A stretch of DNA of 64,000 nt, taken from Myxococcota bacterium. Its GTDB lineage: Bacteria > Myxococcota_A > UBA9160 > UBA6930. The notes under the pieces are model-generated. The model was not told the DNA's origin, did no database searches, and worked only from the letters and a program-made list of their open reading frames with translations. The DNA lies in contig OZ245015.1 of NCBI GenBank assembly GCA_965223705.1, positions 160,001-224,000 of the forward strand. The letters run 5' to 3'. Below are positions 4,337-15,652 of this stretch, piece after piece. Both the position numbers and the translations under genes were made by a program. Position 1 is the stretch's first letter. Every line of letters starts with the position of its first letter.

Positions 4337-4466
4337 CGCCAACGGAGTTGCGGCTCAGTGGGTCCGCCGACCTGAGGGCGAGATTCTGCCGATACCGCTG
4401 GTTAAGGCACAAGACTAACGAACTAGAGAAGAGCAAAGGCGGGTCCGCTGTAGCCGCTGGTTAGAC
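4337..4466 (-). repeat. attC site (R' box imperfect)
   Basis: + strand CGCCAAC...GCTGGTTAGAC, array-type arms. Confidence 0.85.
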
Positions 4467-5003
4467 GGCAAGCTCCAACTCGCCGCCCGCTATCACCTCG
4501 GGCGTCGTCGCGTCTCCGGGTCCAAACTCGAGGGCGCCAGAAGCCAGGTACAAGACAACATTGCCTGGCGAGTAGAGGTGCCAGATTGGATCGCCCGGCC
4601 CAAAGTCGGCATACCTCTGCGTTTAAACCACAAAGCCGAATTCAAACTTGAATATGAATTCACCCCGTGTCGGGGAAGCTCCGACCGTCTCGAGCTTTGC
4701 ACCATCGAGTCTAGATAAGGCCCGGGATATGGTCTCGTTGTCCGATTCAGAGTGCGCGAGTTCCGTAGATTGCTCGCGAAGCGACCAATCACATTGCTCA
4801 ATCCACAGATGGTGATCACCGCGAACTGTGACCAAACGCCTGCGCAGGTACTCGCGACGAGAGTCGGGAACAGGTTCGCGAATTTCTAGATGAGGCTGCC
4901 CGGAGTCGAATGTGATGAAGGAGCTGTAACCCCGTTGCGCGTTCCAGCAAGGGAGCCCAGATAAGCTGCCGAAACTCGCGCTCAGGAGGTCCCTGGCATC
5001 CAA
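4461..5003 (-). pseudogene. Cassette gene with in-frame TAA at 4623-4625
   Basis: Frame stays open after the stop and ends at the TAA of the R'' box (4461-4463). Confidence 0.6.
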
Positions 5004-5021
5004 AGTACGCCCTTGCCTGCC

Positions 5022-5157
5022 GTCTAACGGAGATGGCGCTCAGCTGCGAGCCACAGTGCCTCCGTGGTTCGAGCAAAGCACCAGAGTTACAATGCCAGAG
5101 CGTAAAAGAACCCGGTTTGACAAGCTGTGGCTCCTCAGCTGCAGCGCCTTGTTAGAC
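5022..5157 (-). repeat. attC site, divergent (non-array-type) sequence
   Basis: GTCTAAC...GTTAGAC ends, GCTCAGC/GCTGCAGC L boxes, unrelated central region. Confidence 0.9.
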
Positions 5158-5184
5158 GGTGTGCTCCCGGGGTCAGAAGGAACG

Positions 5185-5421
5185 ATGGGCAAAGCGGGAC
5201 AGAAGGTGCTGGACGAAGCGCTGCAACTCGAACTCTCAGAACGAGCGGAGCTTGCGGCGGAACTGCTCGCAAGCCTCGACGGCGAACCGGACGAGGAGGC
5301 CGAGGCGGCTTGGGCTGACGAAATCAAGCGCCGGCTCACCCGCGCTCGATCTGGCGCAGATGAGGGAAGGCCCTGGCCAGCCGTTCGAGATGCGGTCAAG
5401 GACGCATTGAACAACAGGTGA
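5185..5421 (+). CDS. Addiction-module antitoxin
   Basis: L-x-x-x-ERAELA..LL.SLD...EAAW..EI.RR pattern; overlaps toxin start (GTGA). Confidence 0.85.
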   Translation: MGKAGQKVLDEALQLELSERAELAAELLASLDGEPDEEAEAAWADEIKRRLTRARSGADEGRPWPAVRDAVKDALNNR

Positions 5422-5732
5422 CTCCTAGCGTTCGCATCAGTGAAGAGGCTGAAGCCGAGGTGGCTGAGTCGGCTCGCTGGTACGAGACAAACCGAGCGAA
5501 CTTGGGCGCAGAGTTCCTCGAGGCAGTTGACCTGGCAGTAGATCGAGCCGCAACGAACCCCGCGGCGGGTTCACCGGTGCCGGGTGTTGAAGACGCGGCT
5601 GTTCGCCGGTGGCCGGTACGCCGTTTCCCGTATCACGTTGTGTACGTCGAGCTCCCCGACCGTCTTCAGATTCTCGCTGTGGCGCACGATCGCCGACGCC
5701 CCGGATATTGGATCGGTCGGCTGCCAAGCTGA
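5418..5732 (+). CDS. RelE/ParE-family toxin
   Basis: AEAEV..SARWY, RRFPYHVVY, ILAVAH.RRRPGYW. Confidence 0.9.
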   Translation: MTPSVRISEEAEAEVAESARWYETNRANLGAEFLEAVDLAVDRAATNPAAGSPVPGVEDAAVRRWPVRRFPYHVVYVELPDRLQILAVAHDRRRPGYWIGRLPS

Positions 5733-5880
5733 CGCCCGAACATCCGTCTAACGGAGTTGCGGCTCAGTGGCCCGCCGACCTAATGGCGAGATTCCGCCGA
5801 CACCGCTGGTAAGGGACCAAGACTAACGAACTAGAACCGAGCTAAGGCGGATCCACTGCAGCCGCTCTTATGATGCGATC

Positions 5881-6078
5881 CGTGATGAAATGAAGCGGCC
5901 GATGAGCACAAGCCACGTGCCCACCGGCCTTCATAGGGAGCGGTAGGCCGAAAGCCAAGAGGTCCCTTGCGAGACCGTTAACAAGCTCGGGTCACCGTTC
6001 CCGTTGCCGCAGCGAAGCTCGAACGATCGCTTGGGCCGCCCGGAGGCGAGCCCGTATTTGAGAGCCCGAGTTCGTTGT
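5881..6078 (+). ncRNA. Putative bridge RNA, copy 1 (ends approximate)
   Basis: 5' hairpin plus two stem-internal-loop-stem modules carrying target- and donor-matching sequence. Confidence 0.75.
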
Positions 6079-6093
6079 ACCGGGAAGTTTATC

Positions 6094-7009
6094 ATGGCCC
6101 CCTGCATTGGAATCGATGTCTCGAAGCACACCCTCGACTGGAGCTCCGGCTCCAAAGGTCGCATCCAGAGCACCCGCAACGTCCCCCGATCAATCGCAGC
6201 CCTCGTTCGCCGACTCTCTGCACTCCGTCCAAAACGAATCGTGGTGGAGTCCACCGGCGGCTACGAACGGCAGCTCGTTCTCAAGCTCGCTGAGGCGAAG
6301 CTACCCGTCGTTGTGGTGAACCCGCGCCGAGTGCGGAGTTTTGGAGAGGCGGTGGGATGTCTCGCCAAGACCGATCCCATCGACGCTCGCCTCTTGTCCC
6401 AGTTCGGCGAGAAGGTAGAACCGCCGCTTCGTCCGATCGTCGAGGGTAGAGAGCGTCTCCTGGCAGACCTTGTCGCGCGTCGCCGGCAGTTGGTCTCCAT
6501 GGTCGTCGCCGAGAAGAACCGACGCGAGTGTGCACCCGCCGCGGTTCGCCGATCGATCACCGCCGTGCTGAAGATGCCAACTACGGTCCATCGACGGGCA
6601 GATGGAAAAGATCCTCGACGAAGACGCAGAACGAGCCGAGCTGTCGGGGCTCCTGCAAAGCGTCCCCGGTGTAGGACCGGGTGTCGCACGCACGCTGCTC
6701 ATCGACCTACCCGAGTTGGGTCACCTGGGGCGTCGAGAGATCGCGTCTCTCGTCGGGGTCGCTCCCTTCGCACGAGATAGCGGAATGTTACGGGGGTCAC
6801 GACGAATCCGCGGAGGTCGTGCCTCGGTACGCACTGCGTTGTATCTCGCGGCGATGACCGCTTCCCGCTTCAACCCGACTCTTCGAGGTGTCTACGAAAG
6901 ACTTCGCGCATCGGGGAAGCCGCCGAAGCTCGCCTTCGTCGCTATCGCTCGAAAACTCCTCGTCATCCTCAACGCCATCGCTCGCGACCGCGTCGCCTGG
7001 CAGCCCTAA
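6094..7009 (+). pseudogene. Frameshifted IS110 recombinase
   Basis: AAGATG[CTCGAAGG]CCAACT deletion splits the ORF in two. Confidence 0.9.
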
Positions 7010-14109: not shown

Positions 14110-14412
14110 AGGAGCCCGTAACGACAGGCCGCAAAAGCTGCAGGTTGGGCGGCCGACCCACGCGCCGAGCCACCTCTTGCCCCTGACCCCGAAGAAGTAC
14201 TTCTCGCACTTAGGACAGCGCGCATTGGATAGGCCGAACTGCTCAACGAACGTAAACAGCCCGCAGCCAAAGCCCACTACGAATACTGGCGCGGCAACTA
14301 TCTCGGGCAGCACAAAGGCCGAGAAAAGGCAGCCAGTGAAAACCCATCCGCACAACCGGTAGCGATTCCATCTTCGCCTGAGAATCTCGAGCGCTTCAGA
14401 TTGGCTGTCCAA
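14104..14412 (-). CDS. Membrane protein with C-terminal zinc-ribbon-like motif
   Basis: Two TM segments, CPKC...CSFC; stop in R'' box. Confidence 0.75.
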   Translation of the reverse strand: MDSQSEALEILRRRWNRYRLCGWVFTGCLFSAFVLPEIVAAPVFVVGFGCGLFTFVEQFGLSNARCPKCEKYFFGVRGKRWLGAWVGRPTCSFCGLSLRAPA

Positions 14413-14433
14413 GCTTGGGAACGCCTGCTGTCT

Positions 14434-14563
14434 GCCTAACGGAGTTGCGGCTCAGTGGGCCCGCCGACCTAATGGCGAGATTCCGCCGATGCCGCTGGTA
14501 AGGGCACAAGACTAACGAACTAGGACTGAGCTAAGGCGGGTCCACTGCAGCCGCTGGTTAGAC
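14434..14563 (-). repeat. attC site
   Basis: Identical to 7584-7713. Confidence 0.95.
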
Positions 14564-14570
14564 GGCGCCA

Positions 14571-14963
14571 CTACTCGGGCGGTTGCTCCAGTAGTGCGAG
14601 AAGCCCACACGCTACAACAACCAAAACCGCTACAGCAGCTGCAAAACCGTAGGCGAACCGAATGCCCCCGCCGGCCGATCCTTCTAGCGCCATAGCGATA
14701 CCGATTACAGCGATAGCAGCGGCAGAGACCCCGGGCAGGAGGCGTCTCGCGAGACGAGAACGCTTGGATCGCGCGAGCAGCTGGGCCTGCGTCAGGCCTT
14801 CTCGGGCGAAGACCAGTGGGGCGATAAAGATAGTTCCGGCTCCAAGAGACGCGAGCACGACCAGGAATGGAGCGCCTGTCAGAAGGCCACCGACGGCTAA
14901 TGCGAACATTAAGCAGCCGACGAAGCCGGCGAACGCGATCGCTGTTCGTAAGAGTGCGTTCAA
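14571..14963 (-). CDS. Hypothetical membrane protein (duplicate of 7721-8113)
   Basis: Identical translation. Confidence 0.75.
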   Translation of the reverse strand: MNALLRTAIAFAGFVGCLMFALAVGGLLTGAPFLVVLASLGAGTIFIAPLVFAREGLTQAQLLARSKRSRLARRLLPGVSAAAIAVIGIAMALEGSAGGGIRFAYGFAAAVAVLVVVACGLLALLEQPPE

Positions 14964-14975
14964 CTCGTTGCGTCC

Positions 14976-15105
14976 GTCTAACGGAGATGCGGCTCAGTGG
15001 GCCCGCCGACCTAAAGGCGAGGTTCCGCCGACACCGCTGGTAAGGGCACAAGACTAACGAACTAGAACCGAGCTAAGGCGGGTCCACTGCAGCCGCTGGT
15101 TAGGC
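14976..15105 (-). repeat. attC site
   Basis: GTCTAAC...GCTGGTTAGGC. Confidence 0.95.
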
Positions 15106-15522
15106 GGCATACGACCTCGAAGGACGTAGCGAGCGAAAAGCCAACCGAGGCCAAACTGCTGCGAGGCCTGGGAGAAGTGAATAGAGATAGGGGCTGCCCG
15201 TTTGATAGACGAGCGGAAACGTACAGACAGCTGCGACGACGGCGGGCACAAGGAAGGGCGCAACGCCGGGCTTCTCGAGAGAAACCGATCGTCTGGAAGC
15301 AACCCACCAGACGCTAACAGCTAGGAAGCACCCAACGACGCAGAGCGTGACGCCAAGAAGAGTGAACACGACAAACAGTTCAACAAGCTTGCCTGCTGAC
15401 GCCTCGAACTGCCCGTTCGATAGAAGCCAGAATGCGCGCAGAAGCGCTACTGCAGCTCCGAATACGGCTGGGGTGGCCAGCCCTGACCACAGAAACCACC
15501 GAATGGCTGAGCCGACTGACAT
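15100..15522 (-). CDS. Hypothetical membrane protein
   Basis: Four hydrophobic segments; stop in R'' box. Confidence 0.75.
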   Translation of the reverse strand: MSVGSAIRWFLWSGLATPAVFGAAVALLRAFWLLSNGQFEASAGKLVELFVVFTLLGVTLCVVGCFLAVSVWWVASRRSVSLEKPGVAPFLVPAVVAAVCTFPLVYQTGSPYLYSLLPGLAAVWPRLAFRSLRPSRSYAA

Positions 15523-15526
15523 GTTC

Positions 15527-15652
15527 GCCTAACGGAGTTGCGGCTCAGTGGCTCGACCTGATGGCGAGAGTCCGCCGATACCGCTGGTAAGGGCACAAGA
15601 CTAACGAACTAGAACCGAGCTAAGGCGGGTCCACTGCAGCCGCTTGTTAGGC
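15527..15652 (-). repeat. attC site of first cassette (one arm a few nt short)
   Basis: GCCTAAC...GCTTGTTAGGC; left arm reads CAGTGGCTCGACC instead of CAGTGGCCCGCCGACC. Confidence 0.9.

What the first reader, a model, noticed from the sequence alone, without database searches (positions are those of the whole stretch)
4337..15652. The guide sequence predicts which attC sites are occupied
Seen: the 14 full-length attC sites end in four variants. GCTTGTTA occurs 4 times (sites starting 5746, 9712, 12179, 15527), GCTGGTTA 7 times, GCTTGTTG twice and CCTTGTTA once. The IS occupies 3 of the 4 perfect matches and 0 of the 10 mismatched sites (4/364, about 1%, if the three were chosen at random). 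Inference: a single T>G change in the unpaired attC spacer gives immunity, so the majority GCTGGTTA allele could be an escape variant in an IS-integron conflict.
Basis: partly seen in the sequence, partly recalled or inferred. Interest (0 to 1): 0.75.

Follow-up and report, generated by a model that had tools for sequence, protein, structure and literature searches.

The report
Guide RNA picks integron attC sites
A jumping gene steered by its own small RNA sits only in those integron recombination sites that match one letter of its guide, and relatives that changed that letter sit in the other version of the site; the rule is real and of a known kind, while the idea that the host's sites evolved to escape it remains unproven.

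Summary
Counts confirmed. The element is an IS621-type IS110 with a 5' bridge RNA and CT core, inserted in the R''-L'' spacer of attC. One array alone is weak: p=0.011, rising to 0.03-0.12 under fairer groupings. Relatives settle the rule. Guide base A went with target T in 78 of 79 records and guide C with G in 4 of 4; the C guide arose at least twice. The T belongs to the target. Corrections: TTGTTG is disfavoured but used, the leading G is not a guide requirement, and G-site 'immunity' holds only against this guide. Escape is unproven. G is the minority allele order-wide (40 of 405 sites) but is not enriched in IS-bearing genomes (6/44 vs 34/361, p=0.42), and G-rich arrays occur without a detected IS. 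Retargeted guides do occur in G-rich hosts, which fits a chase or simple sorting. attC-targeting IS1111 elements are published, unlabelled attC-like targets stand in Durrant 2024's supplement, and this scan noted similar elements on other DNA. Verdict: new variant of a known kind.

The parts
5867..7033 (+). IS110 copy 1 in attC 5746; 8-nt deletion at 6578 frameshifts the transposase (a possible consensus error; not tested)
9834..11008 (+). IS110 copy 2 (intact, 1175 bp) in attC 9712
12301..13475 (+). IS110 copy 3 (identical to copy 2) in attC 12179
   Evidence: unitig 12323-13481 in runs X1 and X2
10061..10984 (+). IS110 recombinase, 307 aa, D8/E52/D94/D97 and S232 invariant in the homologues aligned
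   Evidence: Pfam PF01548+PF02371; NCBIfam NF033542 above cutoff; PDB ISCro4 and IS621
9855..10045 (+). predicted bridge RNA in the 5' non-coding region: 5' stem-loop, target-binding loop, donor-binding loop (same in all three copies)
   Evidence: consensus fold of 64 homologous NCRs, 39 pairs, 12 with two-sided changes; single fold z=-2.33; no Rfam match
9918..9926 (+). left target guide (LTG); matches the left target only at positions 3-6 and has lost its core-pairing CT
   Evidence: position assigned by homology; LTG/left-flank matches 268 of 345 vs shuffled mean 200, max 229; 54 of 65 records have CT there
9946..9952 (+). right target guide (RTG) UAACAAG; base 9950 (A) reads the T/G position of attC
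9990..9998 (+). left donor guide, 9 of 9 identical to the IS right end
   Evidence: sequence directly
10023..10031 (+). right donor guide, discontinuous 9-nt pairing with the IS left end (inferred)
   Evidence: sequence; pattern described in PMC11208160
4337..4466 (-). attC, G allele, empty
5022..5157 (-). attC of another type, CCTTGTTA, empty; perfect RTG match but poorer LTG match
5746..7041 (-). attC, T allele, split by IS copy 1
7584..7713 (-). attC, G allele, empty (duplicate of 14434)
8126..8255 (-). attC, G allele, empty
8760..8890 (-). attC, TTGTTG, empty
9269..9397 (-). attC, G allele, empty
9712..11016 (-). attC, T allele, split by IS copy 2
11538..11666 (-). attC, TTGTTG, empty
12179..13483 (-). 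attC, T allele, split by IS copy 3
13982..14109 (-). attC, G allele, empty
14434..14563 (-). attC, G allele, empty
14976..15105 (-). attC, G allele, empty
15527..15652 (-). attC, T allele, empty; the only remaining best-match site in the genome
   Evidence: right end covered without IS by a contig of run X2 (record 16, which starts at 15615)
16038..16044 (-). probable attI core (GTTAGGC on the - strand)
   Evidence: sequence; joints ending at 16036-16038 (inference)
16279..17265 (+). integron integrase, divergent from the cassette array
   Evidence: TIGR02249 448.8 bits, cutoff 265
3212..3330 (+). decayed older relative of the IS beside an attC fragment (5' stem-loop and transposase start; both guide loops deleted)
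   Evidence: 84-91% identity to the IS (families D14 and D17); present in short-read contigs

Best explanation
An IS621-type IS110 bridge-recombinase element parasitises the attC sites of a chromosomal integron. Its 5' non-coding region encodes a bridge RNA (inferred from structure and covariation; expression not shown). The right target guide base-pairs with CT-TGTTA, so the element recombines at a CT core inside the 5-nt R''-L'' spacer, opposite to most cassette genes, and separates R'' from the rest of attC (inactivation inferred). The guide A at 9950 needs T at the first base after the core, so G-allele sites are poor targets for this element. This copy's left guide is degenerate, so the right guide probably carries most of the discrimination (inferred). 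The T/G dimorphism is old, recurs across lineages, and is more common in some of them. Guides follow it: elements in G-rich hosts carry C or U at that base. Why G rises is not shown. Drift or attC-fold constraints, plus attrition of hit T sites, explain the data as well as selected escape does.
For: Guide/target covariation at +1 in 83 distinct element+flank records: A-T 78, A-G 1, C-G 4. Two more elements have a U guide, one in an A site (L169) and one in a G site (G157; wobble). Against a 10% G background (40 of 405 empty sites), 1 of 79 gives p=0.003. Other positions covary too: +2 (L174), +5 (p=0.001), and the left guide (268 of 345 vs shuffled max 229). The C guide needs 3 changes on the tree, with at least 2 forced by well-supported branches (quick tree). 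In runs X1-X3 the collapsed IS unitig ends at 13481, i.e. it passes TGTTAG without branching. In the complete genome G014 a C-guide copy occupies a G site while 3 T sites are empty. IS621 shows low single-mismatch tolerance (PMC11208160, passages).
Against: One A-guide record (L167) has a G flank. Half-match insertion is reported for IS621 (bioRxiv 10.64898/2026.08.31.748434, abstract and section 8), so immunity need not be absolute. The RTG match is not sufficient: 23 of 31 genomic CTTGTTA words lie outside the array and none carries the IS, and sites 5022 and 15527 are empty. The homologues are related to each other, so p-values overstate. Collapsed metagenome contigs may pair a guide with another copy's flank. 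Logan contigs drop rare variants, and run X4's unitig ends earlier, at 13459. No RNA data and no functional assay.
Confidence: 0.85

Rival explanations
1. Escape and counter-escape: T>G spread in attC because IS insertion destroys the site, and the IS answers by mutating its guide.
For: T is the majority state in the order (365 T: 40 G outside this genome), yet G is 7 of 14 here (vs 26 of 112 in the family, p=0.049). An older decayed IS in this array shows repeated exposure. Non-A guides arose more than once and occur in G-rich hosts: in genus g72, carriers have 12 G: 6 T and non-carriers 3 G: 13 T (p=0.007, genomes not independent). G occurs on both attC subtypes here and in several genera.
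Against: G is not enriched in genomes with a clade IS (6 of 44 vs 34 of 361, p=0.42; 3 of 38 without G014). G009 (6 of 12), G008 (4 of 6), G015 (4 of 12) and G030 (2 of 5) are G-rich with no clade IS found (they are 80-89% complete MAGs, so absence is not shown). Family f9 has the IS in 4 of 44 genomes but only 3 G in 76 sites. G120 keeps 54 T and 0 G. Any non-T base should escape, yet A is 0 and C 13 in 146 genomes. Among empty attC on contigs of A-guide elements, 13 of 14 are T.
Confidence: 0.25
2. The dimorphism is neutral or set by attC folding, and the IS merely sorts onto it. The base lies in the unpaired central spacer; T gives a G:T pair beside the R box on the bottom strand, G gives a G.G mismatch.
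For: Folds of the natural alleles differ at exactly this place. The UCS sequence is unconserved yet affects recombination and strand choice, and bottom strands are purine- and G-rich (PMC5027507, passages). G is enriched by lineage (26/112 in family f1 vs 14/293 elsewhere), not by IS presence. All 13 sites of this array's attC family carry an internal CGCTGG copy that could template T>G.
Against: It does not by itself explain why this IS-saturated array is 50% G. The internal copy is present in only 2 of 39 attC from the other genomes examined, so templating is not general. No recombination assay of the two alleles exists.
Confidence: 0.5
3. Passive attrition: T-allele cassettes hit by the IS are immobilised and eventually deleted, so arrays drift towards G without selection on new mutations.
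For: 3 of 4 best-match sites are already filled and 7 of 11 empty sites are G. The array is polymorphic in the population (joints 14111>16038 and 15655>16036). A decayed IS and attC fragments lie at the distal end. ISPa21 is proposed to immobilise cassettes (PMC11616780, passages).
Against: It predicts the same IS/G association that was not found across genomes.
Confidence: 0.25
4. The pattern is chance, or an artefact of misplaced IS ends or of assembly.
For: Within the array p is 0.03-0.12 under fairer groupings. The window has indel differences from short-read contigs at 15553, 13452-14011 and 15705-16065.
Against: The IS right end is conserved across the family and followed by diverse bases. 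Covariation in 83 records. Short-read contigs reproduce the IS and the bases after it.
Confidence: 0.03

Closest known systems
IS621 / ISCro4 bridge-recombinase elements (IS110 group; Durrant et al. 2024, PMC11208160, passages and Supplementary Data 2 searched)
   Same: Short (307 aa) DEDD+Tnp recombinase, best PDB hits ISCro4 (E 1.8e-37) and IS621 (E 2.2e-33); 5' NCR with three-part RNA, LTG-RTG-LDG-RDG order, CT core, 7-nt RTG, discontinuous RDG, promoter formed across joined ends. Their file of natural targets holds 38 unlabelled CTTGTTAG words and 0 CTGGTTAG; many of the 27 shown read to me as attC R''-L'' ends (the attC reading is mine).
   Different: Target is attC rather than REP. The paper's main text has 'attC' only twice; the place shown was a reference title. 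This copy's LTG pairs at only 4 of 9 positions.
IS1111-attC group: ISKpn4, ISPst6, ISPa25, ISPa21 (Siddiquee et al. 2024, PMC11187229, passages; Tetu & Holmes 2008 and Post & Hall 2009 seen only as reference titles)
   Same: RNA-guided DEDD insertion sequences that target one end of attC sites.
   Different: Those have a downstream NCR, subterminal inverted repeats and the reverse guide order; this element has an upstream NCR and belongs to the IS621/Piv-size branch. Whether they insert at the same attC position was not checked (paper not held).
Natural redirection of IS guides: ISEc11/ISXne4, ISEc21/ISMch6 (PMC11187229, passages)
   Same: Guide bases change together with the target.
   Different: Here the change is one base, has happened repeatedly, and follows a standing polymorphism of a multi-copy host site.
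Group IIC-attC introns (PMC3001079, search listing only)
   Same: Another mobile element that uses attC as its landing site.
   Different: RNA intron with reverse transcriptase, not a DNA recombinase.

Membership tests
IS110 group (IS621-type bridge element) | DEDD RuvC-like domain plus Tnp domain with catalytic serine | tested here: met
   PF01548 and PF02371; NF033542 191.8 bits vs cutoff 140; D8, E52, D94, D97, S232 invariant
IS110 group (IS621-type bridge element) | Long NCR upstream of the transposase, short right end | tested here: met
   227-nt 5' NCR, 24-nt right end
IS110 group (IS621-type bridge element) | CT core at both boundaries, no other target duplication | tested here: met
   removing the IS restores a 129-130-bp attC like the empty ones; the same end occurs across homologues
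IS110 group (IS621-type bridge element) | Bridge RNA fold with target- and donor-binding internal loops | tested here: met
   consensus fold of 64 NCRs, 12 of 39 pairs with two-sided changes, most of them in the 5' stem-loop; most TBL and DBL pairs are invariant
IS110 group (IS621-type bridge element) | Guides covary with target and match donor | tested here: met
   this copy's own LTG matches only 4 of 9
IS110 group (IS621-type bridge element) | Sigma70-like promoter formed at the circle junction | tested here: met
   TTGACT in the right end and TATGAT in the left end would lie 17 bp apart on joining (ends printed; sequence inference only)
IS110 group (IS621-type bridge element) | Circular intermediate | tested here: inconclusive
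   no end-to-start joint listed in contigs of 4 runs; contigs drop rare forms
IS110 group (IS621-type bridge element) | RNA expressed, bound by the recombinase and needed for insertion | not testable with these tools
   needs experiment
IS1111-attC group | NCR downstream of the transposase | tested here: not met
   NCR is upstream
IS1111-attC group | Subterminal inverted repeats | tested here: not met
   direct reading of the ends shows only about 6-9 imperfectly complementary bases; none among the 25 longest inverted repeats
IS1111-attC group | Inserts at a fixed position in attC | tested here: met
   3 of 3 here and nearly all close homologues at the CT of the R''-L'' spacer; identity of position with ISKpn4/ISPst6 not tested
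Integron attC site | R''/R' boxes, L boxes with an extrahelical base, bottom-strand hairpin, adjacent intI | tested here: met
   folds; TIGR02249; the L'-R' spacer is 9 nt, longer than the usual 5-6 (PMC5027507)

The most novel reading that the evidence does not exclude
A single-nucleotide arms race readable from sequence: integron attC sites escape an RNA-guided recombinase by a T>G change in their one unconstrained spacer base, and the element repeatedly rewrites the facing guide base (A>C at least twice, A>U in two more elements) to follow. This would be guide-versus-target coevolution between a bridge RNA and a host recombination site, comparable to CRISPR spacer/protospacer escape.
Probability: 0.25. 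Interest if true: 0.72.

Novelty: new variant of a known kind. Interest (0 to 1): 0.45.

Why it matters
It gives a large natural check of bridge-RNA single-base specificity (78 of 79 and 4 of 4) in a widespread clade of 5'-NCR IS110 elements that converged on the same host site as the IS1111-attC group. It supplies natural guide/target allele pairs that make two open questions directly testable: whether these IS disable cassette mobility (stated as little tested in PMC11616780), and whether attC sequence evolves under pressure from them. The mechanism itself is known, so surprise is moderate.

Tried and rejected
(1) T as part of the IS: rejected. (2) The GCGGCCGAU stretch in the 5' stem-loop as left guide: rejected; it lies in a stem with compensatory changes, and the loop that covaries with targets is 9918-9926. 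(3) Pairing of the left guide with the folded attC's partner arm: no complementarity on direct reading. (4) Internal-repeat templating as a general source of G: 2 of 39 attC elsewhere carry the internal copy. (5) IS left-junction pattern across 33 family genomes: at control level, uninformative. (6) Rfam: 0 matches in 3000-17500. (7) No RNA holder listed. (8) No circle junction or empty-site joint listed; not evidence of absence. (9) Tetu & Holmes 2008 is not held. (10) The tree's careful search did not finish; the quick tree was used, and one outgroup row (L027) was mislabelled T there. (11) Literature searches found no paper that names an upstream-NCR IS110 clade targeting attC or tests attC escape. 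Subscription papers and ISfinder were not searchable. One Durrant supplement is a scan and three were cut when stored; Siddiquee's supplements were not read, and bioRxiv supplements are closed. Any of these may bear on novelty. (12) Earlier-findings look-ups by place and by protein sequence gave nothing relevant.
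Full report
Observation. The region is a chromosomal integron: an integrase at 16279-17265 (TIGR02249), a probable attI core at 16038-16044, and cassettes mostly on the minus strand. One search recovers the 14 full-length attC sites with the four end variants exactly as reported (4, 7, 2, 1). Three IS copies lie in the sites starting at 5746, 9712 and 12179. Copies 2 and 3 are identical; copy 1 differs only by an 8-nt deletion, and all three share the same guides. No other full copy exists in the genome. The 4/364 figure is correct but depends on the grouping: with five perfect 7-nt matches p=0.027, with all seven T-allele sites p=0.096, and 0.014 or 0.12 after collapsing the duplicated cassette 7584/14434.

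The element. The 307-aa protein is an IS110 RNA-guided transposase whose only PDB relatives are ISCro4 and IS621. The non-coding region is upstream, the core is CT, and joining the ends would place TTGACT and TATGAT 17 bp apart (ends). A consensus fold of 64 homologous NCRs gives the bridge-RNA layout, with 12 of 39 pairs showing two-sided changes, mostly in the 5' stem-loop. In copy 2 the left target guide is at 9918-9926, the right target guide UAACAAG at 9946-9952, and the donor guides at 9990-9998 and 10023-10031. Insertion is at the CT inside the 5-nt R''-L'' spacer and separates R'' from the rest of the site. That this inactivates attC, and that the RNA is expressed, are inferences.

Test of the guide rule in relatives. 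Searches of 61 and 193 related genomes, the species-genome collection (best 80 of 270) and metagenomes (best 80 of 179) gave a broad clade that inserts at the same attC position; named records of close homologues include Myxococcota MAGs. I kept loci at 49.4% identity or more with a parsable guide loop, removed this genome's loci, non-clade loci and duplicates (89 records), and dropped 6 without a right flank, leaving 83. At the first base after the core, guide A faced T in 78 and G in 1 (L167), and guide C faced G in 4 of 4. Two further elements have U there: L169 sits in an A site, and the G157 element in a G site, by wobble. Empty attC in the order are 365 T to 40 G outside this genome (reversed-pattern controls 0 and 2), so 1 of 79 is below expectation (p=0.003; relatives are not independent). 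The C guide needs three changes on a quick tree, two of them forced by well-supported branches. G014, a complete genome of the same family, is the mirror image: its C-guide copy, later split by another IS, has a G-allele right flank, while three T sites are empty. The IS right end is conserved across the family and followed by diverse bases, so the T belongs to the target. In three of four runs from this population the collapsed IS unitig runs through TGTTAG before ending, which fits all abundant copies being in T sites; contigs drop rare variants.

TTGTTG is disfavoured, not immune: with U at that guide position the target had A 67, G 5, T 1, against 58 of the 150 listed empty T sites having G. 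L124 has this element's exact right-guide loop and sits in a TTGTTG site. The leading G of GCTTGTTA is not a requirement. The facing RNA base is C in 65 of 65 records and matches donor G in 59 of 60, while targets have C 34 times and G 28 times. This is the handshake position, where pairing before exchange inhibits insertion (PMC13626964, passages). So site 5022 is a full right-guide match; its emptiness is chance or reflects the left guide. A right-guide match is also not sufficient: 23 of 31 CTTGTTA words lie outside the array, unoccupied. This copy's left guide pairs at only positions 3-6 and has lost the core CT that 54 of 65 records keep, yet it is shared by three near-identical copies. 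That fits reports of half-match insertion (bioRxiv 10.64898/2026.08.31.748434, abstract and section 8) and suggests the right guide dominates here (inference).

The escape idea. For it: G is the minority allele but makes up half of this array (7 of 14 vs 26 of 112 in the family, p=0.049); a decayed older relative at 3212-3330 shows earlier exposure; and non-A guides occur in G-rich hosts (genus g72: carriers 12 G: 6 T, others 3 G: 13 T). Against it: G is not enriched in genomes carrying a clade IS (6 of 44 vs 34 of 361 sites, p=0.42; my assignment, which counts G006 with its decayed copy, as lacking). G009, G008, G015 and G030 are 33-67% G with no clade IS found (incomplete MAGs). Family f9 has the IS but 3 G in 76 sites. 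13 of 14 empty attC beside A-guide elements are T. A and C would escape too, yet they number 0 and 13 in 146 genomes. The base lies in the unpaired central spacer, where T forms a G:T pair and G a mismatch, and that spacer affects recombination (PMC5027507, passages). Drift or folding, with passive loss of hit cassettes, therefore remain at least as likely. The data show that guides track host alleles; they do not show which moved first.

Comparison with what is known. attC-targeting RNA-guided IS are published for the IS1111 family (PMC11187229, passages); this element fails that group's tests (NCR upstream, no subterminal repeats) while working like it. It meets the sequence-testable features of the IS621-type group. 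Durrant et al.'s file of natural targets contains 38 unlabelled CTTGTTAG words and no CTGGTTAG, many of which I read as attC ends, so the targeting itself is already in public data. My searches found no paper naming such a clade or testing escape. This scan's earlier notes describe attC-targeting IS110/IS1111 elements in other genomes; I did not check them.

Verdict. Observation confirmed; guide rule strongly supported (0.85); escape hypothesis open (about 0.25). New variant of a known kind; interest 0.45.

Noticed in passing
L102:11391-14300 and L205/L206 (G014, complete genome of the same family): Three different IS110-family elements hit attC at three positions, nested in one site: one at the CT of the R' box next to the integrase crossover, one with a downstream NCR just inside L'', and the clade studied here in the R''-L'' spacer. 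All 3 empty G-allele matches in G014 lie beside the downstream-NCR element.
   Followed up: partly
window 2947-3684 (-), overlapping 3212-3330: An ORF with a membrane-protein-like C-terminal part runs across the decayed IS/attC remnant; an internal ATG lies in the remnant's stem-loop, so the gene start may derive from IS sequence.
   Followed up: no
window 15683-15705: 23 bp identical to the IS donor-loop region lie 30 bp beyond the empty site 15527. Short-read contigs differ from the window by many indels around here, so it may be a consensus artefact from IS-bearing reads; not resolved.
   Followed up: partly
window 15067-15097 as laid: A contig of run X4 runs from an attC end into the IS start, and X1 and X4 show an A>C variant 31 nt from the contig end that no window site has. 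This suggests a further occupied attC in the population.
   Followed up: no
window 13476-16040: The array is polymorphic in the runs: joints skip 14111>16038 and 15655>16036, and run X3 has almost no cover of 13487-13840.
   Followed up: no
all 13 same-family attC, e.g. 8810-8845: Each carries an internal CGCTGG(T)TA(A/G) copy of the G-allele end followed by a CTAAC, forming a small nested R-box-like hairpin.
   Followed up: partly
window attC sites and relatives (L206-L218): The L'-R' spacer is about 9 nt rather than the usual 5-6, and the first extrahelical base on the bottom strand is C.
   Followed up: no
window 5185-5732 (+), 11020-11494 (-), 11672-12141 (-): Three toxin-antitoxin-like cassettes: addiction module + ParE, DUF4160 + DUF2442, and ParE with a partner; two flank IS-occupied sites.
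   Followed up: no
window 7584-8126 and 14434-14976: Exact duplication of one cassette with its attC.
   Followed up: partly
window 1852-1876: Orphan attC right-arm fragment at the distal end of the array.
   Followed up: no
G120:C1 (order relative): A large array with 54 T-allele matches, 0 G, and no clade IS found.
   Followed up: no
L189 (G135): A clade member retargeted away from attC, to a GGTACC right flank, with matching changes in both target guides.
   Followed up: partly
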